From an uncultured Gammaproteobacteria bacterium (GTDB taxonomy: Bacteria > Patescibacteriota > Microgenomatia > Levybacterales > GWA1-39-11), in NCBI GenBank assembly GCA_964452165.1, contig CAYVKP010000001.1:76110-140109 (forward strand): a stretch of 64,000 nucleotides of DNA, in the 5' to 3' direction. Under the pieces are notes generated by a model. It ran no database searches. It was given only the letters and a program-made list of their open reading frames with translations, and was not told where the DNA came from. The translations under genes were made by a program, and so were the position numbers. Shown piece by piece: positions 31,862 to 64,000 of the stretch; position 1 is the stretch's first letter, and each line of letters opens with the position of its first letter.

Positions 31862-31993
31862 AAAGATGAAAATACAATATCAACAAACAATACACATTTT
31901 TATCAACAGGTTTTCCACATTTTTGAGAGCACCGGTTTTTGCTTTAATCCACATATCCACCTATACTACTACTATTACTAAGATAAATAATAT
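31862..31993. other. candidate oriC/DUE region between dnaA and dnaN
   Basis: AT-rich 132-bp spacer with DnaA-box-like 9-mers (TTTTCCACA, TTAATCCACA, TATCCACCT) and an AT-rich run (tactactactattactaagataaataatat). Confidence 0.5.
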
Positions 31994-34713: not shown

Positions 34714-36918
34714 TTAGTTTATACCACAGGTATCAGCAGGCGTGTACCACGGCTTCCAGTTTGTTCCACCCGCTGACATCTCTGCCATTTTTTTAGTATT
34801 CTCGATGGGGTCTGAGTATTTGGCTACACATGCATCAAGTTTTGCTTGATTTGCAACTGCGCAAGTCGGCGGATTTATCGTGTAATTTGAAAAAGCTCCG
34901 GGACACTGGACGAGCATGTTTATTTGGAAAAGTCCGACACTGTAGTCAGCGGAGACTCCTGTTAGACAGCCCTTATTAAGCGCGGCGGGATTTCCTCCGC
35001 TTTCTCGCTTGCAAATTATAGAGGCTTTGAGGGCTTTTGTCTCATCGTTGCCAAAATATTGCTTTAAGCTCGACACGGCACAAAAATTGGATCCCCCGGA
35101 GCATACGCCGCCGGTTGGGGGAGCCGATTGTCCCGGAGTTGGGCCTGTGGGTGAAGGTGCCGCAGCTTGTGCATACAGGAAGTTCGATATTGATACATCA
35201 TCCTTCGCAGGCTTTAAAGTTAAGGTAAAGCCTTGTTGATTGTCGGTCTCTTTAAGAGACCAGGAGACTTTGTTGGTTGTTGGTTCAAAATGATATACAC
35301 CAGAAGTTGCCTGAAAAGTTGTCCCCTGCGGGATATCATCGTAGACTGTTATTTGCTCAAGAGGGACAGTTGCAATAGATGAATCATAAAAAACTTGCAC
35401 GTTATAGGCAATATCTCCCCCGTTATCAATTATGTCAGGACCAGAGAGCGTAAGCGTGAAGCCGGGAATTGGCGTAAGGCTTTGCTGTCCGGCAGGTCCG
35501 GCGCCTTTGCCATTTTGAGCATTGTTTGATCCACCTCCACCAAGGGGGATAGGTAGGGAGCTACCGGACATAAAAAAGAAAATAAAAATTATTAAAACGA
35601 TAAAAAGAAGAGCCCAGAATAAGGGAGATCGGAGGAGAAACCTTTTTATGAACGATGACGAATTCTGAAGTAGAGAGCGTGCTCGTGCTCCAGGTTGGCG
35701 ACCCTGCTTGGGATTTTTTTTAGGTTGTCTTCGTTCCGCGGCGGGTTGAGATTCGTGTGGGTGTTGTCCGGCGTCTTCTCTTTGGGCGTAGGGTTCTGCA
35801 GGCGCTTCAGTGTGGGAGGCATGTTCGGCTGTTTCATGGGGTGGATTCAGAGGCTCCATGTTTTCATGTGGAACCCGAGTTGCCTCCTCAAGTCTTTCCG
35901 TTGCTTGACTCGTCGGTGGTATGTTGACGACATCTGACGTCTGAACGTGTTCTGTATGAGATTGTTGTGTTGGAGGCACTGTTGGTGCAGGGGGCGCAGT
36001 CGCATGGGTTTCCTCGTGCTCTGGTGTCGATTCGGCAATTTTTTTATCAAGCACGCTTTGCGGGACGGGATAATAACCGTATTTTGCTGCTTCCTCAAGT
36101 TCTCCGAGTGTCGAGGTGGCATAATAGTCTGCCGTTCGTTTACGAATTTCCTGTCTCCCCAAAGCGCTTTTTATTTCTTCAGAGTCTTTTTTATAAGCCT
36201 CGGCTTTTTCGGGAAATCTATCTACGAATTTATTCCAGTGCTTTTCTTCTATCCGTTCTCGTATTTTGCTCCAGTCTTCTTTTGAGTCTTTTTTTCCGGC
36301 AGCAAGTACCCTGTCATGTATTTCATCTCTGACTTTTTTTTGTGTTACCCAATAGTTTGGATCCTTCTCAAGCTTAGTTATTTTTTTTGCTTGCTTGTCG
36401 TAATATTCGGCGTTTTTAGGTTTCTTTTCTCTGAACTCTTTTTCAACCTCATCGTGAAGACTGGGTGCTTCAGGATCTTCCAGGGAACCATGAACGTAAT
36501 CCAGAAACTCTTTGCTTTCATAGTTCTTATCCTTATTATTTTTTAGCCACTCGTCTTTCTTACGTATAGCAATTTTTATGAAATCGTTGTCATATTCCAT
36601 GACCTCATTTTGTTTTCTGAAGAGAAGCATGGGGGCAAAAGCAAAGCCAATTAGGCTACCAGCGCGGCTTCTTGTTGGAGGTTTGTAATCTTCTTGTGGC
36701 GCTTCGGGTTGTTTTGTTCCAGAGCCCAAATAATTTGATATCTCAAATCCCGCCACAACATTTGCTGGTAAGCTAATTCCCGTGCTTTCACTCCATTTGA
36801 CCAGCTCGTGTTCGGATGGAAAACCGGGTAGTCCGTTTCTTTTTTGATAATCTTGCCATTTCGCTATTAAGTTATCTGCTGTTTGGCGGTTGCTTTGTAT
36901 AAACTTTCCTGTATCCAT
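34714..36918 (-). CDS. large bitopic protein: cytoplasmic charged N-terminal region, single TM, extracellular domain ending in a lysozyme-like/SLT-type transglycosylase module
   Basis: C-terminal KRESGGNPAALN ... DYSVGLFQIN resembles the ES...GLMQ core of lytic transglycosylases; TM helix LFWALLFIVLIIFIFFFM. Confidence 0.55.
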   Translation of the reverse strand: MDTGKFIQSNRQTADNLIAKWQDYQKRNGLPGFPSEHELVKWSESTGISLPANVVAGFEISNYLGSGTKQPEAPQEDYKPPTRSRAGSLIGFAFAPMLLFRKQNEVMEYDNDFIKIAIRKKDEWLKNNKDKNYESKEFLDYVHGSLEDPEAPSLHDEVEKEFREKKPKNAEYYDKQAKKITKLEKDPNYWVTQKKVRDEIHDRVLAAGKKDSKEDWSKIRERIEEKHWNKFVDRFPEKAEAYKKDSEEIKSALGRQEIRKRTADYYATSTLGELEEAAKYGYYPVPQSVLDKKIAESTPEHEETHATAPPAPTVPPTQQSHTEHVQTSDVVNIPPTSQATERLEEATRVPHENMEPLNPPHETAEHASHTEAPAEPYAQREDAGQHPHESQPAAERRQPKKNPKQGRQPGARARSLLQNSSSFIKRFLLRSPLFWALLFIVLIIFIFFFMSGSSLPIPLGGGGSNNAQNGKGAGPAGQQSLTPIPGFTLTLSGPDIIDNGGDIAYNVQVFYDSSIATVPLEQITVYDDIPQGTTFQATSGVYHFEPTTNKVSWSLKETDNQQGFTLTLKPAKDDVSISNFLYAQAAAPSPTGPTPGQSAPPTGGVCSGGSNFCAVSSLKQYFGNDETKALKASIICKRESGGNPAALNKGCLTGVSADYSVGLFQINMLVQCPGAFSNYTINPPTCAVANQAKLDACVAKYSDPIENTKKMAEMSAGGTNWKPWYTPADTCGIN

Positions 36919-43812: not shown

Positions 43813-44121
43813 CTATTTGGGGATCAATTGTTTGACTCCTGTAAATTTGCCAAGAGTTGCGAGTATTACAAATGAGGCAAGAACCAGAAGAAATCCACCC
43901 AATGCATAGAAAAGAGTTTTTCTCGTAGTTTTAAGTTTCTCCGGATCTCCTTCTGACGTGACCATTTTGTACCCTGAGAATATTATGAGAAAAACACATA
44001 CGATTCCGGCCAAGATAACGAGCGACCTTATAAGGTTGTCAAGAACAATCGGAATGCATCTAAGCGTTGCGACTTTTGTTTCTGGGTCGAGACAGCTATC
44101 CCAGGAGAGTGTTGGCATCAT
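43813..44121 (-). CDS. TrbC/VirB2-like mini-pilin (paralog A)
   Basis: Two hydrophobic helices around SGYKMVTSEGDPEKLKTTRKTLFYALGGFLLVLASFVIL. Confidence 0.6.
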   Translation of the reverse strand: MMPTLSWDSCLDPETKVATLRCIPIVLDNLIRSLVILAGIVCVFLIIFSGYKMVTSEGDPEKLKTTRKTLFYALGGFLLVLASFVILATLGKFTGVKQLIPK

Positions 44122-44179: not shown

Positions 44180-44602
44180 TTAAATCTGGCTGTCTGGAGC
44201 TTTTTGGAGAACCGGAATCTTGAGATGTGAGAGGCTTCCAAGTCCTAGCGCTGAGATTACGACGTTTACAATAACAAAAGATAGTGCAATTACAATGAGC
44301 CCAATGATTGCGGCGATAATGTGATTTCTCGCATCTGCTACTCTTTGTTTGTCTCCTCCTGATGTGATCCATTGAAATGCTCCAATAACTATGTAAAGAA
44401 GTGCTGCCAAGAATGCTACGACAATAACAAAAGCTACCGCAAAAGAGACGATAGAACCGATGCTTGTATCAGGTGTGATGATTGTCCCTCCGGGAGGGCT
44501 TTTAATAGACGCATTTAAAACGGCCGGGTCGCCCTGTGCGAGAACACCCTGAGCAAGTGCCAGAAAAGGTAGAGCTGAAAGCGCAATTTGTAATTTCTTC
44601 AT
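44180..44602 (-). CDS. TrbC/VirB2-like pilin with signal peptide (paralog B)
   Basis: Signal peptide MKKLQIALSALPFLALAQGVLA; core GAFQWITSGGDKQRVADARNHIIAAIIGLIVIALSFVIV. Confidence 0.6.
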   Translation of the reverse strand: MKKLQIALSALPFLALAQGVLAQGDPAVLNASIKSPPGGTIITPDTSIGSIVSFAVAFVIVVAFLAALLYIVIGAFQWITSGGDKQRVADARNHIIAAIIGLIVIALSFVIVNVVISALGLGSLSHLKIPVLQKAPDSQI

Positions 44603-44683: not shown

Positions 44684-46123
44684 ATGAAAATAGGATTAAA
44701 ATTATTCTTTTGGTTCGTAATTTTTTTGGTAGGTTTTGGCTTTTATATTAAAAATGTTTCATTGCTTGATCCCGACTTTGGTTGGCATCTTCACTTAGGG
44801 CAGTTAATTTTAAAGTCCGGAATACCAAAATTGGATCCCTTCTCATACACTATGCCCTCATTCCCATTTATAGATCATGAGTGGTTATCAAACGTAATAA
44901 TCTATCTAGTTTATTCCAAGAGCCAGTTTGTTTTAAATATAATTTTTGCAATCTTTACAACAGCAACGTTTATAATTCAATTTCCAAAGAAGAATAAGTG
45001 GTTGGCGATTCCGTTTTTCTTACTTTCTTGCGCCTCGATTGTAATTTTTTCAGGAGTTCGTGTACAGGTTGTCTCATGGTTTTTGTTCTCGGTGTTGTTA
45101 AAAATAATTTTTGATGAAAGTCTTTGGAAAAAATGGCGAATCACGGTTCCCTTACTGGTTGTTATTTGGGCAAATCTCCACGGCGGTTTTGCAATCGCCA
45201 TTTTTCTTTTAGGAATCTTTTTGTTCTCGAGGATTTTCTTAAAAAAGATTGATAAATGGGATTTTGCGGTTTTCTTAGCATCAATTGCTGCAACTTTTGT
45301 AAATCCATATGGAGCAAGACTTTGGTCTGAGGTTTTGTCTTCAGTGACAGACACGAGTCTTCGTTTTGAAATTCAAGAATGGCTTCCTGGAGTGCTCATA
45401 TTTAATGTCCCCCTTGTTGTTCTCGTTTCTATCATTTTGGGACTTGGTTCGTCGCTTTATAAAAAACTTACTTTTACCCAAATTGGAATTTTTATAGTAT
45501 TTCTTCTGCTCGCAGCATCAAGTATTCGTCATACACCTTTCTTTATAATAATTGCATTTTGTTTTTCAACTCAGCTTTTCACTCTCTTTTATTCGGGTAT
45601 CAAGAAAGCCGAACAAAAAAAACGTTTTGATAAATTTAATATTGGTCTCTTTTTAATCGCGGGATTCTTATTTATATACGCATTTTATAATTCGGCAATT
45701 CATAATCCTCATTCGGTAGAAAAATTTTATCCTACCAAGGACGCAGTAGGGTATATGTCTAAAAATGCAAAAGAAAGCCAAATTTTTGCTTTGTACAACT
45801 GGGGTGGATATTTAATATGGAAACTGCCTTCCAAAAAAGTTTTCATTGATGGAAGAATGCCTTCCTGGCGATTTAAAGCGCCCGTCGGACAGGCAGACTC
45901 AGCCTTAAAAGAATACGACAGTATTGTGACGGGAGACGCCGACTACAAAGTTTTTTTTGATAAATATAAAATTGCGTGGGCGATTCTTGATAAGCCCTGT
46001 CCCCAAAACAGATTATTTCTGTGTCAAAGATTGTTACATGATGGCTGGAGCAGGGTATATGAGGATAAGGTTTCCATCATTTACAAAAAGCCAATACTTA
46101 ATGGGTCACTGCGCCGTTTGTAA
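44684..46123 (+). CDS. polytopic membrane protein (about 11 TM plus C-terminal soluble domain), GT-C-fold-like putative glycosyltransferase
   Basis: First-loop motif DPDFGWHLHLGQLILKSG followed by many TM helices and a roughly 130-aa C-terminal domain, the layout of ArnT/PglL-type enzymes. Assignment is weak. Confidence 0.4.
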   Translation: MKIGLKLFFWFVIFLVGFGFYIKNVSLLDPDFGWHLHLGQLILKSGIPKLDPFSYTMPSFPFIDHEWLSNVIIYLVYSKSQFVLNIIFAIFTTATFIIQFPKKNKWLAIPFFLLSCASIVIFSGVRVQVVSWFLFSVLLKIIFDESLWKKWRITVPLLVVIWANLHGGFAIAIFLLGIFLFSRIFLKKIDKWDFAVFLASIAATFVNPYGARLWSEVLSSVTDTSLRFEIQEWLPGVLIFNVPLVVLVSIILGLGSSLYKKLTFTQIGIFIVFLLLAASSIRHTPFFIIIAFCFSTQLFTLFYSGIKKAEQKKRFDKFNIGLFLIAGFLFIYAFYNSAIHNPHSVEKFYPTKDAVGYMSKNAKESQIFALYNWGGYLIWKLPSKKVFIDGRMPSWRFKAPVGQADSALKEYDSIVTGDADYKVFFDKYKIAWAILDKPCPQNRLFLCQRLLHDGWSRVYEDKVSIIYKKPILNGSLRRL

Positions 46124-46442
46124 CACCTACGGCAGATGTTATAAAGTTTACTATAACCAAAGATAACGCCATGATTATAATCCCCAAAATTGAATAGACG
46201 ATAATTCTTCTTGCATGGTCAAGTTTTTCCTTATCTCCCTTAGATTGTAACCAGTAAAAGCCGCCATAAGTCATATAAATTAAAGAAAGAATTACTCCAA
46301 TGACCATTGCAACCTCAACGAATTTTGTGGCAAGTGAGGAGATTGTGAATTCCGCACCATGTGGAATTCCTGCAGGCGGGTGAATTTCAATTGATGACGT
46401 GCCATCTCCGGTTGGAACTTTCAAAGAAATAAGACCTCTCAT
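46098..46442 (-). CDS. TrbC/VirB2-like mini-pilin (paralog C)
   Basis: Core GGFYWLQSKGDKEKLDHARRIIVYSILGIIIMALSLVIV. Confidence 0.6.
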   Translation of the reverse strand: MRGLISLKVPTGDGTSSIEIHPPAGIPHGAEFTISSLATKFVEVAMVIGVILSLIYMTYGGFYWLQSKGDKEKLDHARRIIVYSILGIIIMALSLVIVNFITSAVGVTNGAVTH

Positions 46443-48127
46443 CTTGACAATCCTGGAATCTTAAGAATATCGACTCCAACTATCTCAAGTATAACAATCG
46501 AAAGAATTATAAACAACAATCCTACTATCGCCGCGGTTATTGTTTCCCTGGCTCCTGCAAGTTTTTCCTTATCTCCCCGAGATATCATAAGTAAGTAACC
46601 CGAGTAGATGATTATGATGATTGCTCCAAATCCTGCCAATGTTAGTATGAAGCCAAACATAGTTTCAATAAAACCCTTAAATGAACTGACATCAATGTTT
46701 CCTATAGCCGTATTTATTGATTTACAGTTAAGTGTCGAATTTTTGGTACGAATAGGATTACTTCCGTTTCCGCAAGGGAGTCCTACGGCCAGATCCTTCT
46801 TGTTAAGAGCTGCAAGCTCTTTCAGAAATGCCTTGTATTCTTCTCCTTGGGGATCCTTTCCGTCCTGAGGGTTTGTACAAGATCCCCCCGCTTTATTAGC
46901 AGGGCTTACGCCGCAAGTTATTTGATAGTATGTAAATCCGCCCTGACATGTATTAATAAAGGTATTATCGATGTCGTTTATTGTCCTAACGCCGAATTTT
47001 CCTACGTCTATAGCTTTTTGTATAGGGTAAATGATTGGCCTGAGCGCTTGTTTCGCAATATCAACTGCAAAATCTTTAGGGTGGGTGAAATCGTGTGCTA
47101 AGTCGCCAATCACACCAGTAACTTTTTTAACTACGTGCAGGGGATTTGGATCAAACCCAAGAAGTCCTCCTCCTCCGCCTCCACCACCACCCGTATCACC
47201 GCTTTTTAAGGCACCGCCCAGAGTATCGGGTTCATTTATCTGTTCTTTTATTAAAATCGTGTATACACCGGCGTCAGTAATTCCTCCAAAGGGTTGAGCT
47301 TGTCCAATGTCTATACACCCCTCACTGTCGTAGCCGCCTTCTCCTCCCTGAACCAGTACTTGATAATTATTCCTTTTTTCTCCTCCTCCTTTGGATCGGC
47401 CTGAAATAGTGACCTTGAAGGTGTTTATTGGAGCGACAAGGCTTTGATTTGGCTCAACGCTTACGGTGGGATAATATTTGGTCACATAGAATCCACCATT
47501 CTTAACAGGTTGGTATTTATCGCCTTGAGCGGCTTTTTTGACGACGCTGAAATTATACATTTGTCCACCCTGAAACCAATTCTCCTTATCTGGTCCACAT
47601 CCCTCGATCTTTAAATTATCTCCGTCTCCACAAACTCTGAAGCGTACATCTCCCTCTTCGTCTGCTTGACTCCCATCATCCGTTAATACGCTGTCGTCGG
47701 ATATCTTGCCCGTTCCAAAACAGTTATCGTCTCCCGTACAAATGAAATATTTTGTTCCCGGATTTAAATTGTGGAATGTAATATCTACGCAGGGTAGTGA
47801 TTCATCAATGCTCAAGAAGTTGGGGTTAGTTGTAAAGTCGCTATCGCCTTGGGTATCCTGTGCAAGTGCCAAGTCGGCCGACGTAAGAGGTATTCCATTT
47901 CCACAAGGGCTTGTTGGGGCCGCGGTTGGCGAGGGGGTAGTTTGGCCCGCGGGATTTTGTGCAGGTGTTTGGGGAGTGGTGTTTTGACCGGAGCCATTGG
48001 GTGACGTGGTTTGACCAAGGGGGTTGGGAGTAGTTTGAGCATAGCCGGTGCCTGAAAAAGAAGAGAAAAAGACAAAAAGAATTGAGGATACAAAAATGAA
48101 CTGTAGAATAACTCTCAAGATCTTCAC
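46439..48127 (-). CDS. secreted Pro/Thr- and Gly-rich surface protein carrying a C-terminal VirB2-like pilin module (paralog D)
   Basis: Signal peptide, poly-Gly tract GGGGGGGGGLLG, many Cys, C-terminus YSGYLLMISRGDKEKLAGARETITAAIVGLLFIILSIVIL. Confidence 0.6.
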   Translation of the reverse strand: MKILRVILQFIFVSSILFVFFSSFSGTGYAQTTPNPLGQTTSPNGSGQNTTPQTPAQNPAGQTTPSPTAAPTSPCGNGIPLTSADLALAQDTQGDSDFTTNPNFLSIDESLPCVDITFHNLNPGTKYFICTGDDNCFGTGKISDDSVLTDDGSQADEEGDVRFRVCGDGDNLKIEGCGPDKENWFQGGQMYNFSVVKKAAQGDKYQPVKNGGFYVTKYYPTVSVEPNQSLVAPINTFKVTISGRSKGGGEKRNNYQVLVQGGEGGYDSEGCIDIGQAQPFGGITDAGVYTILIKEQINEPDTLGGALKSGDTGGGGGGGGGLLGFDPNPLHVVKKVTGVIGDLAHDFTHPKDFAVDIAKQALRPIIYPIQKAIDVGKFGVRTINDIDNTFINTCQGGFTYYQITCGVSPANKAGGSCTNPQDGKDPQGEEYKAFLKELAALNKKDLAVGLPCGNGSNPIRTKNSTLNCKSINTAIGNIDVSSFKGFIETMFGFILTLAGFGAIIIIIYSGYLLMISRGDKEKLAGARETITAAIVGLLFIILSIVILEIVGVDILKIPGLSR

Positions 48128-48168
48128 TTATTAATGATAGTCAGAAGTAAAGCACATTGTCAAACAAA

Positions 48169-49470
48169 TTATTTACTAAATTTATAGCCCCGGCCTTTTA
48201 CGGTTTGAATGAAACGGGGATTCTCAGGATCATCTTCGATTTTTCGACGCAGTCTATAAATTATTTGATCGAGTGCTTGGTCCGTGACTCCTTCCTGGGT
48301 TTGGTTATCCTTCCAGACCCCTGTGATTATCTCGTCTTTCTCGGAAATTTTGTCTGCGTTTGTCATAAGGAATTTTAACAGTCTAAACTCTGAGGGGGTA
48401 AGTTTCTCGGTTAAGTTTTCTTGTCCTTTCATGATCTCATTTTTCTCAGGATCATATTTTAATTCGCCAGCAACCTCTTTCGGTCGCTTGTTAACGAACG
48501 AAACAAATAAGGGAATCGTTATTTTCCCCCCGCTTGTCAGATTTAATTTCTCAAGATTTTCATTTTTCGTTTCGCTTCTTATGTCTTTTTGTTCTTCGGG
48601 AGTCAGGAAATTCCATATTTCAAAAAGAGCAGCCTTTACCTGAGTGTTAGAGATTAAAAATTCCTCTAAATCTTTAGATCTATCTTCTGCAAGAACCGCC
48701 TCGTAAGAAACTTTTGCAAGCTTTCCATGTCCACCCGTAAGTGTTTCAACCTCATTTCTCACTTTTTCAGAAGCTTTTTTACCGGTAATCTCCTCAAGGT
48801 GAGAAAATCTGAAGGTAAGGCCAACGGGGTCTTTAATAGGTAGAAAGATTGTGTTGCCCACAAGGAGTTCATAAAATTCAGAGTAGAGCGGGAGTTCAAG
48901 TGTGTCTTCAATTGGACGGCTTACTGCAAAAACAGCAAGGAAATTGTATTTAACCCGGTTTCTTAAAATTCTTAAGTTTAGGAAAAACTTAGAATCCACA
49001 TTCGGAATATAATCTTCGAATCGGTCGAAAAGAAAAACCAAAAAGTATCCCTTGTCTTTGACTAGAAAATCTACAGTCTTTTTAAGCGCCTGAAAGAGTA
49101 TCAGCTCATCTTGAAAATTTACAACTTCTGCCAGATACTCGTTGACCGTATTTTGTGCTTCAGTTAGTCTTCTCTCGCCTAGGGAATAGGAGACTGAGAT
49201 CAGGATGAACTTTACAATCTCAAACAAACTTCTGCCCCGGACTTCCGAGAAGTCCATATATATAAAGTGAAAGCTAGGCTCATCTGTACCCAGGTGAAGT
49301 TCTCGTACCTTCCTGTTATATGGTAGTAGACGCAAGGCGTTACTTTTTCCAACACCGGGGATTCCAACCACCTGGCAAGATGCGCCCGTGCGTAGAATTT
49401 TGATCATTTCTGATATTTCTGCTTCACGCGTGTTGGGTGGGTAGAGAGCCTCAAAATGGTTGGGTTCCAT
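48169..49470 (-). CDS. P-loop NTPase fused to a C-terminal OmpR/PhoB-type winged-helix DNA-binding domain
   Basis: Walker A GIPGVGKSN. C-terminus TPSEFRLLKFLMTNADKISEKDEIITGVW...RLRRKIEDDPENPRFIQTVKGRGYKF (trans_reg_C). Confidence 0.65.
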   Translation of the reverse strand: MEPNHFEALYPPNTREAEISEMIKILRTGASCQVVGIPGVGKSNALRLLPYNRKVRELHLGTDEPSFHFIYMDFSEVRGRSLFEIVKFILISVSYSLGERRLTEAQNTVNEYLAEVVNFQDELILFQALKKTVDFLVKDKGYFLVFLFDRFEDYIPNVDSKFFLNLRILRNRVKYNFLAVFAVSRPIEDTLELPLYSEFYELLVGNTIFLPIKDPVGLTFRFSHLEEITGKKASEKVRNEVETLTGGHGKLAKVSYEAVLAEDRSKDLEEFLISNTQVKAALFEIWNFLTPEEQKDIRSETKNENLEKLNLTSGGKITIPLFVSFVNKRPKEVAGELKYDPEKNEIMKGQENLTEKLTPSEFRLLKFLMTNADKISEKDEIITGVWKDNQTQEGVTDQALDQIIYRLRRKIEDDPENPRFIQTVKGRGYKFSK

Positions 49471-49573
49471 AATATTTATTCTACTATTTTTACAGCCAAG
49501 GCGCCATTTATAGCTTTTTTGTTAGGTTGCTGGGAGGCAAATATCAAGTTCAAGGCAGCTTTAGGTTGTAAAC

Positions 49574-52500
49574 TTGCCGCATATGAATGAGAATTTGACA
49601 CCTAACAAACCTGTAGCGTATCCTTTAAATAGGCCTATGGCTGAAAATACAGCAGATAATTTACCCGCAACTCCTCCTACAGAGGTGAAAGGTTCTGATG
49701 AGGAGCAAGTAGTCGTTGTTGAATCAAGGGATAATGTTCAAAACGGCAAGACTGAGGATAGGGGGACCAACGGATCCAAAAAGGACGAGGAAACACGTAC
49801 TCAAAGGGAGACACGACAAGGCAGAAACAAGCCTACTCCTAAAGAGGCTGAGGAAATCCTAGAAACCTATAAAAAGATCTACGAAAGAGAGTTCAAAAAG
49901 AAGTACGAAGACTTAGACATAGAAACAAGGGAGGCTATTGAAAAAAGGATCGAAGAAGGTAAGCCACCTAACCCTATGGGTGGAGCAAACGAACACGAAG
50001 ACCATGATGAAGAACACGAGGAGCATGGTGGCGGAGGAAATGGGCCTAGAAACACTTATGAAAGAGCCAGGGATATTATGCGGGAATCAAAATATGGCGC
50101 TCAATATACAGCCTTTGTTAATGCTCTTAGAAATGGTGATATGCGTTCTGCATCAAGTCTCCATGATGAAGCGGCGCACGAACTATCTACAGAGCTCACC
50201 GCTGTTGAAGAAAGAATAATAGATGCTCAGAATAATCCTGACCCGGCAGATATTGTGAAAAGAAACGACATAACTAACCTTTTAGGTGAAATGGCTGGAA
50301 TAAAAAGAGAAATTACACCTGCTCCCCCGGTCGATAAACTTCACATAAAGGCTGAAGAACTCATAAGCAAAAGAGAAAGAGGAGAAGAGTGGACCGCTCA
50401 TGACAGAGAAGAAGTTATAGAGTACATAGAAGAAATGAATCCGGCCGGGTATCAAGTAGACGAAGGCGATATTGATTTTATTGCAAGAGACGATGAGTTT
50501 TCTGAAAGATATCTTGACCTTCTCTTAAGTTTGCCTGAAAGCCAACCTAGATCTGGTTACCATTTGGGCTTTCACGAAGGAAATAATCTTGAAGCTTTCA
50601 TGCACAAAGTAAAAGAACACGATCCAAAACGCCTTCAAAGATATTCAGATGAGAGAGGAATGCGTCAGAACTTTCACGAGATGCGCCGTTACATGCTTGT
50701 TGGAAATATCCGTGACTTTTCAACTGTGGCAAGAGATATTCCCGATACTTATATACAAGCAGCAACAGATTATGTAGGTGTGAACTCTGTTCAAAGATTT
50801 TATGATACGGTTTTCAAAGAAGCCATGGCAAAAAAACAGACAATCTCGCCTCAAGACTTCAAGCATATAGAAGAAAGACTCGAAAAATTATTCCGAGATG
50901 CTAATGAGTCTGGGGTTTTTAATATTGAACAGAAGGGTGAGGATGGAAATCCTCTCAGAGATGAACATGGAAATATTGCCACCAGGGCACTTCGCGAATG
51001 GGAAATAAATAGAGCAATTAATGTGGGTAGAAACTTCAGCGCAATCAAGCTTAGACTTCCAGAGCTAATATCTGTAGGGGAAATTCCCAGCAACTTTGGA
51101 ACCCCATCGGTCCCTGAAACTTTTGTCTCATTTGACTATGAAAGTGCCGTAAGATTTCTTAATCCATTAAGGTTCTTGGGCTCAAAGTTTGGAATAGGAG
51201 CAGTCAGGGGAGGCCAGGAATATCTTAAAAAACTTTTCATAGAGATTGATGCACAAAAAAATAGCCAAGCTAAATTTACCAAGCTTTTTGGTATTGATCG
51301 CAAGAATTATGAGCGATCAGCCCCCTTTGGTAATACCAGCTTTGACTCGGGCTGGCGTATACCTCAGGCAAACCTTAACGTCTTTAAAATTATGGCAAGA
51401 GTAAGAGACGAGAAAATATATGACGAGGTTGACAATAAAGAAATGATACTTAAAGTTTATGATCCAACACAAGCCGAGCAGGAAGTTGAGGCAGGTTATT
51501 ATATAGATCATCAGACAAGATACATCAGAGAGCTTAGAAAAAGAGGACTTAAAGACCCACAAATAAGCGCACAGTATGATCACAATGCAGCCATAAAACA
51601 AGCCGTCGAGAAATTACCCTTTTATCGAGGATTTTTGGCTTCTTACGGTAATGTTCCTATTGAAGCAAAAGTAGAGGCATGGAAGAAAATTGCCGAAGAT
51701 ATGCCAAACCAAGTTATGATGATTTTAAAGGGTAATGCCAGCTTTGATGCTTTAAAAGCGTCTCAGGGAATGACTGAAGAAAAAATGGAAACCCTTCAAA
51801 GAAAGCTTGCGTTATATCAAGAGCTGAGACTGCAAGCCCAAATGAGAGAAACTAAGCTTCGTGATGATGGTAGTCCAATTGATCCCACAGCCGGTATAAC
51901 CGAAAAAGATCCTAATGACCCCGAGGGTCACAGAAGAATCATCAGAAACGTAACTCTCAATGAAATAATTACCAGCAATCCAATTCATGGGGACAACAGC
52001 TTGTCACCTGACGAATTAAGATTCATTGATGCGATGAAAACGTGGATGGGACACGATATGCAGGAGGGTGGCGGCACCGTCTACAAAAATCTTGCCGAGG
52101 TTAAGTGGCCAATAAACCCTATAAATGAAGACTTTGCATATGAAACCGCTGACTATACCAGAACTGGAGCTGAGGTATTCAGACGCCGAATTGGAGGAGA
52201 TGCAGTAGCGCTTTATCAAGCCGCTGAAGAGGTAATTCCTATCTTGCGAAATCCCAATATGGCGTTTGAGACTTACATTGAGCATATGCAAAAAGCAGCT
52301 GATGCAATAGATACTCCTCATGGATATGAGGCAGCGCAAAACATGCTTTTCACCTTCCACAAGACCAAGCTGGATTTTACAAGAAAAGACAAAATATGGG
52401 AAAGCTTACCCGGAATCGATGAAGCGGCATCATATTTTGGAGTACCGGTTTCTGAGGCTCAGAGATGGTTTGGAAAAAATGGGGCAGCCTATGATACCTT

Positions 52501-52714
52501 CCAGACACGTGCGTTAATAGAGCAGTTGGTAGGTGCAGGTCTTATAAGACGTCACAAGGAGATTGGCGAAGATAAGCCTCAAATTGACAAGTTAAGAAAA
52601 GCGTTAAGAGCCACACTCCCTGACATTTTAGTAAAGAGAATTCCAATAGGGGGCATATTTATTCTTTTGATAATTATCTCGGAGTTTACAAAGAGGGCGC
52701 TTAAAGAAAAATAA
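49574..52714 (+). CDS. giant (1046 aa) mostly alpha-helical hypothetical protein with a His/Glu-rich patch and a C-terminal TM anchor
   Basis: HEDHDEEHEEHGGGGNG; C-terminal IPIGGIFILLIIISEF; no domain recognised. Confidence 0.6.
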   Translation: MPHMNENLTPNKPVAYPLNRPMAENTADNLPATPPTEVKGSDEEQVVVVESRDNVQNGKTEDRGTNGSKKDEETRTQRETRQGRNKPTPKEAEEILETYKKIYEREFKKKYEDLDIETREAIEKRIEEGKPPNPMGGANEHEDHDEEHEEHGGGGNGPRNTYERARDIMRESKYGAQYTAFVNALRNGDMRSASSLHDEAAHELSTELTAVEERIIDAQNNPDPADIVKRNDITNLLGEMAGIKREITPAPPVDKLHIKAEELISKRERGEEWTAHDREEVIEYIEEMNPAGYQVDEGDIDFIARDDEFSERYLDLLLSLPESQPRSGYHLGFHEGNNLEAFMHKVKEHDPKRLQRYSDERGMRQNFHEMRRYMLVGNIRDFSTVARDIPDTYIQAATDYVGVNSVQRFYDTVFKEAMAKKQTISPQDFKHIEERLEKLFRDANESGVFNIEQKGEDGNPLRDEHGNIATRALREWEINRAINVGRNFSAIKLRLPELISVGEIPSNFGTPSVPETFVSFDYESAVRFLNPLRFLGSKFGIGAVRGGQEYLKKLFIEIDAQKNSQAKFTKLFGIDRKNYERSAPFGNTSFDSGWRIPQANLNVFKIMARVRDEKIYDEVDNKEMILKVYDPTQAEQEVEAGYYIDHQTRYIRELRKRGLKDPQISAQYDHNAAIKQAVEKLPFYRGFLASYGNVPIEAKVEAWKKIAEDMPNQVMMILKGNASFDALKASQGMTEEKMETLQRKLALYQELRLQAQMRETKLRDDGSPIDPTAGITEKDPNDPEGHRRIIRNVTLNEIITSNPIHGDNSLSPDELRFIDAMKTWMGHDMQEGGGTVYKNLAEVKWPINPINEDFAYETADYTRTGAEVFRRRIGGDAVALYQAAEEVIPILRNPNMAFETYIEHMQKAADAIDTPHGYEAAQNMLFTFHKTKLDFTRKDKIWESLPGIDEAASYFGVPVSEAQRWFGKNGAAYDTFQTRALIEQLVGAGLIRRHKEIGEDKPQIDKLRKALRATLPDILVKRIPIGGIFILLIIISEFTKRALKEK

Positions 52715-58388: not shown

Positions 58389-58394
58389 AGTCAA

Positions 58395-58516
58395 ACTTTA
58401 GTTTACATAGGTAATCACCGTGAAAGTCGGTGACTGTGCCGCAACTGTTAAAGTCAGAAAACTATGTTTACATCAAATCCCGAGCAGGAATTTTTTTGTT
58501 CTTTCGAACAACGAAT
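58395..58516 (+). ncRNA. structured 5' leader with weak, partial resemblance to a cobalamin riboswitch
   Basis: GTGAAA-capped hairpin tcaccg-tgaaagt-cggtga, gccgcaactgt (like GCCACTG), aagtcagaaaac (B12-box-like AGYCMG...). Sits between the promoter and the terminator, upstream of B12-binding-protein genes. Confidence 0.35.
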
Positions 58517-58543: not shown

Positions 58544-59173
58544 ATGTTCGAGCAAATAAAAATAGTTTTTAAAAAGTATTTAGGATCGCCCCTTATTGCG
58601 CTTGCGATCGTTTTCTTTATCCTGGCAGGAGCAACGGTTCTTTTTTCCGGTAAGTCTACAAAGACACTAGGCGTAATAACGGAAAATAAACAAGCGGCAA
58701 GAGTTAAGTCTGTTAAATCAACAGCGACACCCACTCAAGAGGCTCAGGAAAGTTCGAATACTTCGACAAATTCCTACCAACAGCCAACAACGGCCTCGTC
58801 AACTCCCACCCCGTATAAAACCGAGACTACAACCACAACAAATTCTTCCAATAACTCGAATGGATCCTCTCAAACACAAGGCAGGGTAAAACTTTCAATC
58901 AACGGTTCATCCACCGGAGAAGTAAATGTTGGTGCGGGACAAAATCAGTGCGATGTTCTAAACGATGCTCTTGCGCAGGGAAAAATTTCTCAGCTTACTA
59001 TGCGTTATGAATCAAGTCTTGGGACTTACGGCGTCTACAAAATTAACAATACTGGCAAAGATAATTCTATTTGGTGGACTTATAAAGTAAACGGAAACTC
59101 GCCTGACAAGGGGTGCAGTTACCTAGGAGTAAATAATGGTGACAGTGTCGAATGGAATTATATAGGAAGCTAA
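58544..59173 (+). CDS. membrane-anchored Ser/Thr-rich protein with a C-terminal DUF4430-like (transcobalamin/intrinsic-factor beta-domain-like) module
   Basis: N-terminal TM helix, ST-rich linker, C-terminus WWTYKVNGNSPDKGCSYLGVNNGDSVEWNY. Confidence 0.55.
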   Translation: MFEQIKIVFKKYLGSPLIALAIVFFILAGATVLFSGKSTKTLGVITENKQAARVKSVKSTATPTQEAQESSNTSTNSYQQPTTASSTPTPYKTETTTTTNSSNNSNGSSQTQGRVKLSINGSSTGEVNVGAGQNQCDVLNDALAQGKISQLTMRYESSLGTYGVYKINNTGKDNSIWWTYKVNGNSPDKGCSYLGVNNGDSVEWNYIGS

Positions 59174-59174
59174 T

Positions 59175-60905
59175 ATGAAATTTATTAAATCAACATTGCT
59201 ATTATTCTTATTCGCGACAGTCTTTTTATTCGTGACCTCAAAAGTTTTTGCAGCAGGAGTGACCGCCGAGGTCAGAATTGTAGGTTCATCAAGAACTATT
59301 TTCTACAATAACGTAACAATCGACGGCGGTTGCACGGTGACAGATGTTGATGGTGGGGTACATACATACACTGACCCGCTCGCAATTTGTGCACTCGATA
59401 AAGCATCAAAAGATGGCGGTTTTTCCTACAAAATCAAAGATAGTTCTTTCGGAATATACCTGACGGGAATTGCGGAAGACGACGGCGCAGCGGATTTTTC
59501 AACTTATTGGCTTTACGATATTAATGGAGCAGGAGCCCAAGTTGGAATTTCAAGCTTAACTCTAAATAACAATGATAAGCTTTTCTTACATTTTTATCCT
59601 GATGCCGACCCTAATGCTCGTTCGTCAAATGATGGAATTGCGTACCTGCGTAGCCAGCAGGCAGCAGACGGGCACATTAACGGATTTGGTGGAGTAAGCC
59701 AGTGGGCGGCGATGGCATTTGCAGCAAAAGGAATTGATATAAGTGGTGTTTCAAAAGGCGGCGCGAGTCTTAAAAGTTATCTTGAGGCCAATTTGCCCAC
59801 TGCTTGTTCTTCTGCAACAGATTGGGAGAAAGATATACTCGCGATAGTTGATACCGGCGCAAATCCTTACAACTTTGGGGGATTAAATTTTGTTGGAACT
59901 CTCAAGTCTTCTGCTTATTACAACGGCACACAAATAGGAGATAGCTCGGGGCTCAACGACGACTTTTTTGGAGTAATGGCTCTCATTGCCGCTGGTGTCT
60001 CAAACTCGGATTCCGTAATAAAAAATAGTGTTTCGTACATAATTTCAAAACAAAATTCGGACGGAGGATGGGGTTTTTCCACAAGTAGTAAATCTGACAG
60101 TAATGATACTGCAGCAGCGCTTCACGCCTTGTCTTCAGCAAAAAATTACGGAGTAACTCATGCAAGTCTTGATAACGCAATAAGCCAAGCCAAGACTTAT
60201 TTGCTTTCACTTCAAGCTTCAGACGGTGGATTTAAATACGATGGTTCTTCGACTGATCCCGATGGATCATCAACTGCTTGGGATTTGGTTGGGCTAAATG
60301 CTGCGGGCATGAATGATGCCGCAACCAGTGCAAAAAAATGGCTCACAAACAATCAGAATAAGGACGGCGGATTTTATTATCAGGCCTCATTTGGAAGTGA
60401 TACGTACACAACAGCACATGCGGTGATAGGGCTTTCGGGTAAGAATTGGATAATTAAGAATTTTGATGCCGGTTCAAATTCAAGCACGGGTACAACATTA
60501 TCGTCCTGTATTACTCCTACACCAACAAGTTCTGTTACTCCAACTCAAACACCAAGCCCAACAAATACTCCCACACCAACACCTACAAGCTCAACTACTA
60601 ATAATAATTCGACTAATAATACTACCAATACAACCAATAATTATTTCGACAGACCAACCCCGGGACTCTCAAGCGTAGTCAACCGAACTCTTTCTGAAAA
60701 TAAGGTAGTTGATAATCCCGGTGAAACAAAAGAACAAGTTTTGGGTGTACAAACCGATAACTCCGGAAGTAATTTACCCAAAACAGTTCAGGTTGCCGGC
60801 ATTAATAATACGCCCAATGTTTTTGCACAATTGTTCTTTGCATTAGGTATTGCCGTCCTCTGTTTTCACATAGGATCACTTTATCAAAAGAGGAAATTAG
60901 CCTAG
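59175..60905 (+). CDS. surface protein: signal peptide, DUF4430-like domain, alpha/alpha-toroid (prenyltransferase/terpene-cyclase-like) repeats, Pro/Thr linker, C-terminal TM anchor; a bacterial intrinsic-factor/transcobalamin-like candidate B12 binder
   Basis: TYWLYDINGAGAQVGISSL (DUF4430). Repeats QQAADGHINGFGG, KQNSDGGWGF, LQASDGGFKY, NQNKDGGFYY. TPTPTSSVTPTQTPSPT linker; C-terminal hydrophobic anchor. Confidence 0.6.
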   Translation: MKFIKSTLLLFLFATVFLFVTSKVFAAGVTAEVRIVGSSRTIFYNNVTIDGGCTVTDVDGGVHTYTDPLAICALDKASKDGGFSYKIKDSSFGIYLTGIAEDDGAADFSTYWLYDINGAGAQVGISSLTLNNNDKLFLHFYPDADPNARSSNDGIAYLRSQQAADGHINGFGGVSQWAAMAFAAKGIDISGVSKGGASLKSYLEANLPTACSSATDWEKDILAIVDTGANPYNFGGLNFVGTLKSSAYYNGTQIGDSSGLNDDFFGVMALIAAGVSNSDSVIKNSVSYIISKQNSDGGWGFSTSSKSDSNDTAAALHALSSAKNYGVTHASLDNAISQAKTYLLSLQASDGGFKYDGSSTDPDGSSTAWDLVGLNAAGMNDAATSAKKWLTNNQNKDGGFYYQASFGSDTYTTAHAVIGLSGKNWIIKNFDAGSNSSTGTTLSSCITPTPTSSVTPTQTPSPTNTPTPTPTSSTTNNNSTNNTTNTTNNYFDRPTPGLSSVVNRTLSENKVVDNPGETKEQVLGVQTDNSGSNLPKTVQVAGINNTPNVFAQLFFALGIAVLCFHIGSLYQKRKLA

Positions 60906-63805: not shown

Positions 63806-64000
63806 TCGCCGATTATACCAAAAAGCCTCCCTTAGCAGGAGGCTATTATGTGGAGATGGGGGGCTATGAGCCCCCGTCCAAAATTACAAAATAAAAACAT
63901 CTACAAGCTTATTTTGTCTTTGATTGTCGTTACAACATACTCCGACAAAAAGGATTTGTTGTAACCAAGGTTATATTTTTTCGAATAAAGCTCCAACCAA

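What the first reader, a model, noticed from the sequence alone, without database searches (positions are those of the whole stretch)
48169..49470. Unusual regulator architecture: N-terminal P-loop ATPase fused to a C-terminal OmpR/PhoB winged helix, inside the T4SS-like locus
The Walker A motif (GIPGVGKSN) and an about 300-aa NTPase/helical region precede a canonical trans_reg_C domain (RLLKFL...VW...YRLRRKI...I.TVRG.GY.F). This is the reverse of SARP/AfsR/EmbR order and lacks a receiver domain. It is a candidate one-component, nucleotide-gated master switch for the adjacent secretion genes.
Basis: seen in the sequence. Interest (0 to 1): 0.55.

Follow-up and report, generated by a model that had tools for sequence, protein, structure and literature searches.

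The report
STAND ATPase fused to OmpR-type regulator
This gene from a Levybacteria (candidate phyla radiation) genome encodes an uncharacterised but widespread kind of one-protein transcription switch, a STAND-type nucleotide-binding module joined to an OmpR/PhoB DNA-binding domain, and its best candidate target is the large unknown gene next door rather than the nearby secretion-system genes.

Summary
ORF 48169-49470 (-) encodes 433 aa with Walker A GIPGVGKSN, a roughly 330-aa P-loop/helical/winged-helix module, and a canonical Trans_reg_C domain (E 1.9e-22). There is no receiver domain and no BTAD. It is not a frameshift fusion: 76 species-level Levybacteria orthologs are full length, and 71 of 74 distant relatives (21-51% identity to the first of them) keep the same C-terminal domain. 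Profiles place the N-terminal module in the STAND class (nSTAND1, AAA_16). Fold search gives PAB2304, Orc1/Cdc6 and CED-4. The ATPase site is atypical in this clade: the Walker A lysine is K in 37 and R in 39 orthologs, and the Walker B Asp is followed by Arg. The "master switch of the T4SS genes" reading is not supported. The only strong operator-like site in the 64 kb lies at 49519-49548. It consists of three boxes phased at 11-12 bp (TTGTaAGg, TTGTaAGG, TATCAAG) placed 20 nt upstream of a -10, with no -35, in front of the divergent 1,043-aa gene 49583-52714, and it overlaps the regulator's own likely promoter. This geometry recurs in about 65 of 75 related loci, even where the regulator gene is inverted. 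Verdict: a new variant of a known kind (STAND transcription factors such as AfsR and MalT). Binding and nucleotide gating remain inferred.

The parts
48169..49470 (-). Regulator gene (433 aa): STAND-type NOD module (residues 1 to ~330) plus a C-terminal OmpR/PhoB winged helix (residues ~334-433)
   Evidence: ORF; Pfam; AF2 models; fold search; 76 full-length orthologs
49339..49365 (-). Walker A / P-loop, GIPGVGKSN (residues 36-44). K42 is K in 37 and R in 39 orthologs
49015..49041 (-). Walker B strand LVFLFD149-R150-F-E (residues 144-152). Arg replaces the usual second acidic residue in 74/76 orthologs
48718..48738 (-). Lid-domain motif T-G-G-H-G-K-L (residues 245-251), the clade's variant of the STAND GxP motif (T/S-G-G-H-P-G-L in the wider family)
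48172..48471 (-). OmpR/PhoB-type DNA-binding domain (residues ~334-433; Trans_reg_C 356-431), with recognition helix DQALDQIIYRLRRKI nearly invariant across orthologs
49519..49548 (+). Candidate operator: three phased boxes, TTGTTAG (49519-49525), CTGGGAG (49530-49536) and TATCAAG (49542-49548), centred at about -58, -47 and -36 of the target promoter
   Evidence: PWM score 38.0 against a shuffle maximum of 12.5, the only site in the window; conserved geometry in 46/75 loci by strict pattern and about 65-68/75 with variants
49569..49574 (+). -10 element TAAACT of the target gene, exactly 20 nt after TATCAAG and 8 nt before the ATG. No -35 and no extended -10
49583..52714 (+). Predicted primary target: 1,043-aa protein with no known domain, a conserved ~30-aa N-terminal motif (MNENLT...) and a hydrophobic C-terminal tail. 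The true start is the ATG at 49583, not the TTG at 49574
   Evidence: (NCBI product of 1,043 aa)
49519..49547 (-). Inferred promoter of the regulator on the opposite strand of the same element: TTGATA (-35, 49547-49542), 17 nt, TAACAA (weak -10, 49524-49519). Orthologs read TTGATA-N18-TACAAT, 6-10 nt before the ATG
   Evidence: inference from the sequence pattern
48134..48163 (-). Separate sigma70-like promoter TTGACA-18-TATCAT of the big pilin-domain gene, in the 41-bp gap after the regulator's stop codon. The -10 ends 6 nt before the GTG start
   Evidence: 11/12 match; same layout in 40/62 loci against 4.6% of control windows
46439..48127 (-). Downstream neighbour: 562-aa secreted protein with a C-terminal T4SS_pilin domain, the first gene of the pilin array (followed by 46098-46442, 44180-44602 and 43813-44121)

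Best explanation
The gene encodes a one-component transcription factor. Its signalling module is a sensor-less STAND-class NOD (P-loop nucleotide-binding domain, helical lid, winged helix; nSTAND1-like). Its output is a C-terminal OmpR/PhoB winged helix. Shown: the domain architecture, its conservation, and a rigid cis-element next to the gene. Inferred: several copies of the protein, brought head-to-tail by the oligomerising NOD as in other STAND and AAA+ proteins, place their wHTH domains on three direct-repeat boxes phased at 11-12 bp (TTGTaAGg, TTGTaAGG, TATCAAG) centred near -58, -47 and -36 of the promoter of the divergent 1,043-aa gene (49583-52714). That promoter has only a -10, so the promoter-proximal protomer would stand in for the missing -35 contact and activate transcription, as PhoB and the SARP domain of AfsR do. 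The opposite strand of the same element carries the regulator's own TTGATA/TACAAT-type promoter, so occupancy would at the same time repress the regulator (negative autoregulation). Nucleotide binding to the NOD probably sets the active or oligomeric state. Hydrolysis is probably not essential, because half of the orthologs carry Arg in place of the P-loop Lys and nearly all lack the second acidic Walker B residue. The T4SS pilin genes downstream have their own constitutive-looking promoter and are not predicted direct targets.
For: Architecture. Family-wide conservation of the fusion: 76/76 complete orthologs and 71/74 distant relatives with Trans_reg_C. Cis-element: an 11-bp peak in the direct-repeat spacing spectrum of regulator-upstream regions (z = 6.0). 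Conservation peaks inside the promoter spacer. The layout [TGTnAk]-N4-[TGTnAk]-N4/5-TATCAAG-N20-TAnnnT-N6-9-ATG occurs in 46/75 loci, rising to about 65-68/75 with proximal-box variants TGTCAAG, CGTCAAG or TATAAAG. There is a single site in the 64-kb window (38.0 against a shuffle maximum of 12.5). The element keeps its position and orientation relative to the large gene both in loci where only the regulator gene is inverted (L052, L057, L073, L075, L077, L078) and in loci where a small gene is inserted between the element and the regulator, yet the regulator stays adjacent. A metagenome scan with the DNA pattern alone recovered 27 regulator-adjacent sites among 80 hits. The target promoter lacks a -35 (0.6-1.4 of 6 matches to TTGACA) and an extended -10 (0/37), with an unconserved 20-nt spacer. 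Precedent: the AfsR afs box is two 11-bp direct repeats overlapping a poor -35, and AfsR is autoinhibited by its NOD/TPR region and activated by ATP binding (PMC10936776). The recognition helix and the box cores are both nearly invariant across orthologs of 34-69% identity.
Against: No binding data exist; the link between regulator and element rests on adjacency and on geometry typical of OmpR-family sites. The element is not exclusive to this junction. It occurs at an unlinked site in a Levybacteria chromosome (L103). It occurs on plasmid-like contigs carrying their own small HTH gene and sigma factor. As a TGTCAAC variant, it occurs upstream of lipoprotein genes on high-GC contigs with no family member within up to 14 kb. 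Another OmpR-family protein could therefore be the binder. In the window the middle box (CTGGGAG) is a poor match. Distant family members show no such element within 8 kb. The single sequence's NTPase hit is below Pfam's threshold. The K/R toggle and the Arg at Walker B+1 leave open that the NOD does not respond to nucleotide at all in this clade. Activation versus repression is inferred from position only.
Confidence: 0.55

Rival explanations
1. One reading: the protein is the master switch of the adjacent T4SS-like genes (pilin array, PrgI, VirB4, VirB6-like), binding operators in front of those operons.
For: The regulator is next to the pilin array in every locus with enough flank (66/83) and in two different orientations, while the NrdR/RNR linkage is lost in about half of the loci. 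In about 12 loci it shares a divergent intergenic region with the pilin genes.
Against: No site above score 8 anywhere in the window except at 49515-49548. The 20-nt PWM gave no strong hits before pilin, PrgI or VirB4 across 80 loci. The pilin promoter has consensus-like -35 and -10 elements in 40/62 loci with an unconserved spacer. The divergent-class pilin-regulator intergenic regions show no shared repeat. All loci come from one order-level clade with generally high synteny, so adjacency alone is weak evidence.
Confidence: 0.15
2. The three-box element is recognised by a different factor, for example a conventional OmpR/PhoB-family response regulator or a plasmid-type HTH protein. The regulator gene is merely one of the genes flanking, or controlled by, that promoter, and its own DNA targets are unknown.
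For: The same element occurs without any family member nearby on plasmid-like contigs (divergent small HTH gene, own sigma factor), at an unlinked Levybacteria locus, and as a TGTCAAC variant on high-GC contigs. TGTnA repeats at 10-11 bp are common to many OmpR-family regulators (general knowledge of PhoB, CpxR and ArcA sites).
Against: The regulator is adjacent to the element in about 65-68 of 75 genome loci and stays adjacent after inversion of the regulator gene alone. 27 of 80 hits from a DNA-only pattern search are regulator-adjacent. Unlinked sites are what a trans-acting factor with a regulon would produce. The wider family is present in Anaerolineaceae as well, so it could also account for the high-GC variant.
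Confidence: 0.2
3. Pseudo-ATPase version: the NOD has lost nucleotide switching in this clade and serves only as a constitutive oligomerisation scaffold, so the protein is a simple autoregulated repressor/activator with no signal input of its own. This rival is not exclusive of the DNA-binding part of the best explanation.
For: Walker A Lys is Arg in 39/76 orthologs, switched at least 5 times and then stably kept. The Walker A Ser/Thr position is G, N or A in 16/76. Walker B+1 is Arg in 74/76. The GxP proline is lost, whereas the wider family keeps GKS, D[Q/R/E]FD and GGHP. There is no sensor domain (TPR, WD40 or LRR).
Against: The window protein itself retains G-K-S and the Walker B Asp. P-loop glycines, D149, R170, K174 and R185 (sensor-1-like) are invariant or nearly so, which points to a maintained phosphate-binding pocket. 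Arg preserves the positive charge.
Confidence: 0.3
4. An Orc1/Cdc6- or DnaA-like origin-proximal DNA-binding ATPase involved in replication or segregation rather than transcription.
For: The top Foldseek E-values are ORC4 and archaeal Orc1/Cdc6, with DnaA domain III also matching. The gene lies about 16 kb from dnaA/dnaN.
Against: The genome has a canonical DnaA. TM-scores to ORC/Cdc6 are only 0.31-0.48. Sequence profiles favour STAND families. The C-terminal domain is a bona fide OmpR/PhoB effector domain. The element sits at a fixed distance from a -10 and a start codon. Distant family members are not origin-linked.
Confidence: 0.03
5. A STAND conflict/defence protein (nSTAND1 was defined in counter-invader systems) in which the wHTH senses foreign DNA.
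For: nSTAND1 similarity. Rare relatives are fused to TIR, protein kinase or TCAD9 domains (PMC8195603).
Against: No PADLOC match for the regulator or its neighbours. It is a single-copy, syntenic core gene across Levybacteria. There is no effector domain.
Confidence: 0.04

Closest known systems
AfsR / large SARP regulators (Streptomyces)
   Same: Combine an OmpR-type wHTH with a STAND NOD in one polypeptide. They bind 11-bp direct repeats that overlap a poor -35 and activate by contacting RNA polymerase. The NOD region controls output, and ATP binding activates (PMC10936776).
   Different: Domain order is reversed (wHTH-BTAD-NOD-TPR). Here there is no BTAD and no TPR sensor. Here there are three boxes reaching to about -58 rather than two boxes centred at -29.5. 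Different phylum, and the NOD belongs to a different STAND clade (nSTAND1-like rather than NB-ARC-like).
MalT / LAL regulators (STAND NTPase + C-terminal LuxR-type HTH)
   Same: Same order: N-terminal NOD, C-terminal DNA-binding domain. Oligomerisation-driven binding to repeated sites (general knowledge of MalT).
   Different: MalT has a large arm/sensor (SUPR) domain between the NOD and the HTH and binds an inducer. Its DNA-binding domain is a LuxR/GerE HTH, not an OmpR wHTH. This protein has no sensor domain at all (433 aa).
PhoB/OmpR response regulators
   Same: Homologous DNA-binding domain (E 1.9e-22; PhoB effector 1gxq at 34% identity). Tandem head-to-tail direct-repeat sites at about 11 bp that replace the -35.
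   Different: No receiver domain and no phospho-acceptor. The input module is a P-loop NTPase.
Pfam nSTAND1 (PF20703), a STAND clade defined in bacterial conflict systems
   Same: Distant family members hit nSTAND1 (42/74, best E 1.2e-11). They share the NBD-lid-WH organisation and the GGHP lid motif.
   Different: The window protein itself does not reach the family threshold. There is no effector or sensor array typical of conflict systems and no PADLOC match.
PAB2304 (PDB 2qen; Pfam ATPase_2) and archaeal Orc1/Cdc6
   Same: Best structural superpositions of the N-terminal module: TM 0.60/0.58 for 2qen and 0.46-0.48 for Orc1/Cdc6. Same three-part ATPase + lid + winged-helix layout and similar overall size.
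   Different: Sequence identity is 12-15%. The C-terminal DNA-binding domain here is an additional OmpR-type wHTH beyond the NOD's own winged helix. No evidence of an initiator role.

Membership tests
OmpR/PhoB winged-helix DNA-binding domain (Pfam Trans_reg_C) | Profile match above the curated threshold covering the whole domain | tested here: met
   E 1.9e-22, 79.6 bits against 26.2, profile positions 5-77 of 77; PDB profile hits to RegX3, PhoB, KdpE and others
Two-component response regulator | N-terminal receiver domain with a phospho-acceptor Asp | tested here: not met
   No Response_reg hit. NCBIfam response-regulator models align only from about position 130 onward. The N-terminus is a P-loop fold
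SARP family (AfsR, EmbR, DnrI) | N-terminal wHTH immediately followed by a BTAD domain | tested here: not met
   The wHTH is C-terminal and there is no BTAD hit at E <= 1
STAND NTPases | Walker A GxxxxGK[ST] | tested here: met
   GIPGVGKS at residues 36-43 in the window protein. The clade as a whole has K 37 / R 39; the wider family has K in 60/71
STAND NTPases | Walker B hhhhD followed by a second acidic residue | tested here: inconclusive
   hhhhD149 is present (70/76), but the next residue is Arg in 74/76. An acidic residue follows at +3 (E/D in 67/76). The wider family reads D-[Q/R/E]-F-D
STAND NTPases | Helical lid with a GxP motif, followed by a winged-helix domain (NBD-HD-WHD) | tested here: met
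   T-G-G-H-G-K-L here and T/S-G-G-H-P-G-L in the wider family. The model shows lid helices 215-261 and a small helical/hairpin domain 268-328. CED-4 matches at TM 0.46
STAND NTPases | Profile similarity to recognised STAND families | tested here: met
   Sub-threshold for the single sequence (AAA_16 E 0.016-0.027). Family-wide: AAA_16 18/23, NPHP3_N 12/23, nSTAND1 7/23. Distant relatives: nSTAND1 42/74 to 1.2e-11, with NACHT, nSTAND2 and AAA_35 also present
STAND NTPases | Nucleotide-dependent oligomerisation and ATP/ADP switching | not testable with these tools
   Requires biochemistry
MalT/LAL regulators | C-terminal LuxR/GerE HTH and a large sensor (SUPR/TPR) domain | tested here: not met
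   No GerE or TPR hits. The protein is only 433 aa, and the NOD ends about 5 residues before the wHTH platform
Orc1/Cdc6 AAA+ initiators | AAA+ core with a Cdc6-type C-terminal winged helix and an origin-binding role | tested here: not met
   Structural resemblance only (TM 0.31-0.48). No Cdc6_C or AAA Pfam hit. The genome encodes DnaA
Known anti-phage defence systems (PADLOC) | Match to a defence-system protein model | tested here: not met
   No hit for the regulator or three neighbours at E <= 0.01

The most novel reading that the evidence does not exclude
Sensor-less STAND-wHTH proteins form a distinct, widespread class of transcription factors. The nucleotide state of a minimal NOD would drive head-to-tail assembly of three or more wHTH domains on phased heptamer boxes (T[G/A]T[C/A]A[A/G][G/C] x 3, with the proximal TATCAAG exactly 20 nt from the -10) that replace the -35. 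The same promoter grammar would be shared from CPR bacteria to high-GC (probably Chloroflexota) organisms and borrowed by plasmids. In Levybacteria, which depend on hosts for nucleotides, the switch would couple cellular nucleotide status to expression of a giant, fast-evolving protein encoded beside the T4SS pilin array.
Probability: 0.2. Interest if true: 0.75.

Novelty: new variant of a known kind. Interest (0 to 1): 0.5.

Why it matters
Very few transcription factors of candidate-phyla-radiation bacteria have any predicted target. Here a conserved regulator is paired with a precisely defined, testable operator and a specific target gene next to the T4SS/pilin region, which published work links to the epibiotic lifestyle (PMC12102498). 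The architecture also fills a gap among STAND transcription factors: a minimal form with no sensor domain and with the OmpR-type output at the C-terminus. The natural K/R polymorphism of the P-loop gives a ready-made experiment on whether such switches need ATP hydrolysis. The rigid promoter layout (three boxes, then 20 nt, then a -10 with no -35), which recurs on plasmid-like and high-GC contigs, may be of wider use for annotating regulons in uncultured bacteria.

Full report
OBSERVATION. The window holds an ATG-initiated ORF of 433 aa at exactly 48169..49470 on the minus strand. Pfam finds a full-length Trans_reg_C domain at residues 356-431 (E 1.9e-22, 79.6 bits against a cut-off of 26.2). 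It finds nothing else above threshold: the N-terminus gives only AAA_16 at E 0.027, and there is no Response_reg and no BTAD. NCBIfam response-regulator models (RpaB, PhoB, MtrA and others) align only through their last ~100 positions. The Walker A string GIPGVGKSN is residues 36-44. Downstream on the same strand lie a 562-aa protein with a C-terminal T4SS_pilin domain and three small T4SS_pilin genes. Further on are PrgI, a TraC-like protein, a VirB4/TraG-type ATPase and an SLT_3 lysozyme. dnaA and dnaN lie at 30.4-33.1 kb. This matches what PMC12102498 reports for the T4SS of Microgenomatia: pilin arrays and proximity to the origin. That paper does not mention this regulator.

IS THE FUSION REAL? 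Yes. The protein database holds more than 1,100 relatives. The best 120 are 422-511 aa, cover 96-100% of the query at 50-100% identity, and where named come from Levybacteria or Patescibacteria. A scan of one genome per species returned 80 loci, from which I extracted 76 complete orthologs of 397-509 aa. None is split.

WHAT IS THE N-TERMINAL MODULE? A PDB sequence-profile search was uninformative. Three other lines agree.
(i) Scanning each member of an N-terminal alignment against Pfam gives AAA_16 in 18/23, AAA_22 in 15/23, NPHP3_N in 12/23, and nSTAND1, nSTAND3, ATPase_2 and NACHT in fewer.
(ii) An exhaustive profile search with residues 1-332 finds 1,245 clusters at 50% identity with E <= 1e-3 and 644 with E <= 1e-10. 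Of 74 distant representatives (21-51% identity to the first of them), 71 end in Trans_reg_C, 42 hit nSTAND1 (best 1.2e-11) and 40 hit AAA_16. The few exceptions are fused to protein kinase, TIR or TCAD9 domains. Named members include Roizmanbacteria and an Anaerolineaceae bacterium.
(iii) AlphaFold models are confident: pLDDT 90.6 and pTM 0.84 for the full length, and 94.1 and 0.91 for residues 1-332. Foldseek against PDB returns the P-loop + lid + winged-helix group. PAB2304 (2qen) gives the best superposition (TM 0.60/0.58), then archaeal Orc1/Cdc6 (0.46-0.48) and the STAND protein CED-4 (0.46), with ORC4 best by E-value.
I therefore read residues 1 to ~330 as a STAND-class NOD (nucleotide-binding domain, helical lid, winged helix). 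It is followed directly by the OmpR-type domain, with no TPR, WD40 or LRR sensor in between.

THE ATPASE SITE IS ATYPICAL IN THIS CLADE. Among the 76 orthologs the P-loop lysine position is K in 37 and R in 39. The following Ser/Thr position is S or T in 60 and G, N or A in 16. The Walker B Asp (70/76) is followed by Arg in 74/76, where STAND and AAA+ proteins usually have a second acidic residue. The lid motif is TGGHGKL. The K/R switch occurred at least five times on a neighbour-joining tree and is then stably inherited, with six different Arg codons in use. So it is selected, not noise. The wider family is canonical: K in 60/71, S in 67/71, D-[Q/R/E]-F-D, and T/S-G-G-H-P-G-L, a proper GxP motif. 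The window protein itself retains G-K-S and D149. My inference is that a phosphate-binding pocket is maintained but hydrolysis is probably dispensable. "Nucleotide-gated" is possible but unproven.

GENOMIC CONTEXT. The regulator lies next to the pilin array in every locus with enough flank (66/83). orf543 is within 5-7 kb in 69 loci, while NrdR/RNR is linked in only 33 (searches show the gene maps). In about 12 loci the regulator gene alone is inverted, so that it diverges from the pilin genes. All these loci come from one order-level clade, so synteny by itself is weak evidence of function. Distant family members sit in unrelated contexts: glycosyltransferases and PMT_2 in Roizmanbacteria, and AAA_35, FGE-sulfatase and gyrB in Anaerolineaceae. 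The architecture is thus a general regulator class, not a T4SS component.

The 41-bp gap between the regulator's stop codon and the big pilin gene holds a near-consensus sigma70 promoter, TTGACA-18-TATCAT, with its -10 ending 6 nt before the start codon. The same layout is present in 40/62 co-directional loci against 4.6% of control windows, and the spacer is not conserved. So the pilin gene looks constitutively promoted and leaderless.

Upstream of the regulator the picture is different. The spacing spectrum of direct repeats has an 11-bp peak (z = 6.0). A much stronger 7/14/21-bp series is due to an unrelated feature. An anchored alignment shows conservation peaks at an 11-12 bp period, including inside the promoter spacer. 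Strong PWM hits occur almost only at this junction.

The key result came from two kinds of loci: those with the regulator inverted and those with a small gene inserted. In both, the element keeps its position and orientation relative to the large neighbouring gene, not the regulator. On that gene's strand the layout is [TGTnAk]-N4-[TGTnAk]-N4/5-TATCAAG-N20-TAnnnT-N6-9-ATG, followed by an ORF of about 770-1,600 aa. It appears in 46/75 loci by strict pattern, and TATCAAG-to-(-10) spacing is 20 nt in 44 of the 46. PWM rescue shows that most remaining loci carry it with the proximal box as TGTCAAG, CGTCAAG or TATAAAG, for roughly 65-68 of 75. The consensus is TTGTaAGgT-N2-TTGTaAGGT-aAA-TATCAAG.

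In the window the element lies at 49519-49548 (score 38.0; the maximum in 20 shuffles was 12.5; nothing else in the 64 kb exceeds 8). The -10 TAAACT is at 49569-49574 and the ATG at 49583. This corrects the ORF start and matches NCBI's 1,043-aa product.

These promoters have no -35 (0.6-1.4 of 6 matches to TTGACA), no extended -10 (0/37) and an unconserved spacer. That is an activator-dependent design, with boxes centred near -36, -47 and -58. On the opposite strand the same bases read TTGATA-N17/18-TACAAT, 6-10 nt before the regulator's ATG in many loci. In the window the -10 is a weaker TAACAA. A protein bound to the boxes would therefore occlude the regulator's own promoter.

MECHANISM (inferred). 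Tandem direct repeats at about 11 bp are the signature of OmpR/PhoB-type wHTH domains bound head-to-tail. For AfsR, the one characterised protein that combines this domain with a STAND NOD, two 11-bp repeats overlap a poor -35, and the NOD/TPR region autoinhibits until ATP binds (PMC10936776). A NOD that oligomerises head-to-tail is a natural way to line up three wHTH domains on three phased boxes. I therefore propose activation of the 49583 gene together with negative autoregulation, with nucleotide binding (not necessarily hydrolysis) setting the active state. Shown: the architecture, its conservation, the element and its geometry. Inferred: who binds it, the sign of regulation and the signal.

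CAVEATS FROM THE METAGENOME SCAN. Of these, 27 are regulator-adjacent, including 3 of the inverted class. The rest are not all noise.
- L103 is a Levybacteria chromosome (EF-G 80-86% identical to named Levybacteria). It has the element at an unlinked site in front of small unknown ORFs. Four other Levybacteria fusA neighbourhoods lack it.
- Plasmid-like contigs (ParA, SprT-like, a sigma70-family factor and a divergent small HTH gene) carry an element that matches the consensus at 6 of the 7 informative positions the pattern did not force.
- About 25 high-GC contigs carry TGTCAAC-TGTCAAC-TATCAAG-N20-(-10) some 20-45 nt upstream of lipoprotein genes, with no family member within up to 14 kb.
- Some Levybacteria loci have a second strong site several kb away.

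These findings cut both ways. They show that the three boxes are repeats of one heptamer and that the grammar is a real, reused promoter class, as expected for a trans-acting factor with a regulon. They also mean that another OmpR-family protein could be the binder. I give that rival 0.2.

THE TARGET. The 1,043-aa protein has no Pfam or PADLOC match and no word-indexed homolog. Its 41 positional orthologs share an N-terminal motif of about 30 aa (M-K/N-E...LT...G-D/N-I-F-M-A/P-E), a long charged body and, in many of them, a hydrophobic C-terminal tail. Its function is unknown. A surface or secreted role connected with the adjacent T4SS is speculation.

COMPARISON AND NOVELTY. The protein works like AfsR/SARP and MalT (STAND-controlled transcription factors) and like PhoB at the DNA level. 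It is a member of none of these: there is no BTAD, TPR, LuxR HTH or receiver (see the membership table). It belongs to a large, uncharacterised family that databases label only as a 'winged helix-turn-helix domain-containing protein'. I found no paper describing the architecture. I rate it a new variant of a known kind. Interest is moderate (0.5). The architecture is not rare, and the master-switch idea is not supported. The regulator-operator-target triplet, however, is precise and testable in a lineage where almost no regulation is understood.

Noticed in passing
window 48134-48163 (-), and loci L004-L083: The big pilin-domain gene (46439-48127) has its own TTGACA-18-TATCAT promoter directly after the regulator's stop codon, with the -10 ending only 6 nt before the GTG start. 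This implies a leaderless mRNA. The same layout occurs in 40/62 related loci against 4.6% of control windows. The regulator and its target also have -10 elements 6-10 nt from their start codons in many loci.
   Followed up: partly
L002, L003/L016, L007, L011, L013, L017, L023, L036, L038, L054, L056, L062, L067, L069, L079, L080 (not in the window): In 17 loci a ~120-aa four-helix-bundle gene (Pfam 23S_rRNA_IVP) is inserted directly beside the regulator. It sits either between the operator and the regulator's ATG or within 20-80 nt after its stop codon. Loci with such insertions carry 7-bp tandem arrays (for example TTCTAAT, CTAGTTG, TTTTGAC) next to the regulator; the spacing spectrum at 7/14/21 bp gives z = 23/21/12. 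It looks like a small insertional cassette that targets promoter-proximal intergenic DNA.
   Followed up: partly
L094, L098, L099, L126, L136, L151, L154, L156, L159 (metagenome contigs): Plasmid-like contigs (ParA, SprT-like protein, a sigma70-family factor, PIN/RHH-like toxin-antitoxin ORFs) carry a near-identical three-box element (TTGTAAAGTTCCTGTAAGGTTAATATCAAG-N20-TATAAT-N6-ATG). It sits between a divergent 76-99-aa HTH gene and small unknown ORFs. The host and the binding factor are unknown.
   Followed up: partly
L087, L100, L104, L106, L112, L113, L122, L127, L133, L135, L139, L142, L155, L158, L162 and others: About 25 high-GC (0.5-0.65) contigs have TTGTCAAC-N3-yTGTCAAC-N5-TATCAAG-N20-TAnnnT some 20-45 nt upstream of genes for lipoproteins or secreted proteins (signal peptides ending ...L(A/S)AC). 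No STAND-wHTH family gene lies within up to 14 kb. This may be a regulon-type promoter of another phylum with the same grammar.
   Followed up: partly
L103:4199-4254 (+): A Levybacteria chromosome (EF-G 80-86% identical to named Levybacteria) has the element at an unlinked site between the tuf region and fusA, in front of 83-, 112- and 198-aa ORFs with no known domain. Four other Levybacteria lack it there, and the rpsG-fusA-tuf interval has variable gene content among them (L206-L209).
   Followed up: partly
window 49574-49583: The mechanical ORF list starts the large neighbouring gene at the TTG at 49574. The conserved -10/ATG spacing, the conserved N-terminus MNENLT and NCBI's 1,043-aa product all indicate the ATG at 49583.
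   Followed up: yes
L042, L046, L051, L052, L057, L062, L063, L073, L075, L077, L078, L079: In about 12 species the regulator gene alone is inverted in place between the pilin array and the operator/large gene. The operator then lies just 3' of the regulator's stop codon, pointing away from it.
   Followed up: yes
window 58393-58469 (+): AdoCbl-II (cobalamin) riboswitch (50 bits against a gathering score of 36.5) upstream of the DUF4430 and prenyltransferase/terpene-cyclase-like genes at 58544-60905. A cobalamin adenosyltransferase gene lies at 61459-62025.
   Followed up: no
window 63848-64000 (-) and 1965-2036 (+): The 3' part of a tmRNA gene, cut by the window end, and one tRNA gene.
   Followed up: no
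window 30440-33097: dnaA (30440-31861) and dnaN (31994-33097) lie about 1.6 kb from the start of the T4SS-like cluster (SLT_3 gene 34714-36918). This matches the origin proximity reported for the Patescibacteria T4SS (PMC12102498).
   Followed up: partly
P0201, P0224, P0237 (distant relatives): A few relatives of the N-terminal module are embedded in much longer proteins (642-1,784 aa) fused to Ser/Thr kinase, TIR or TCAD9 domains. JGI names one of them 'serine/threonine protein kinase/DNA-binding wHTH protein'.
   Followed up: no
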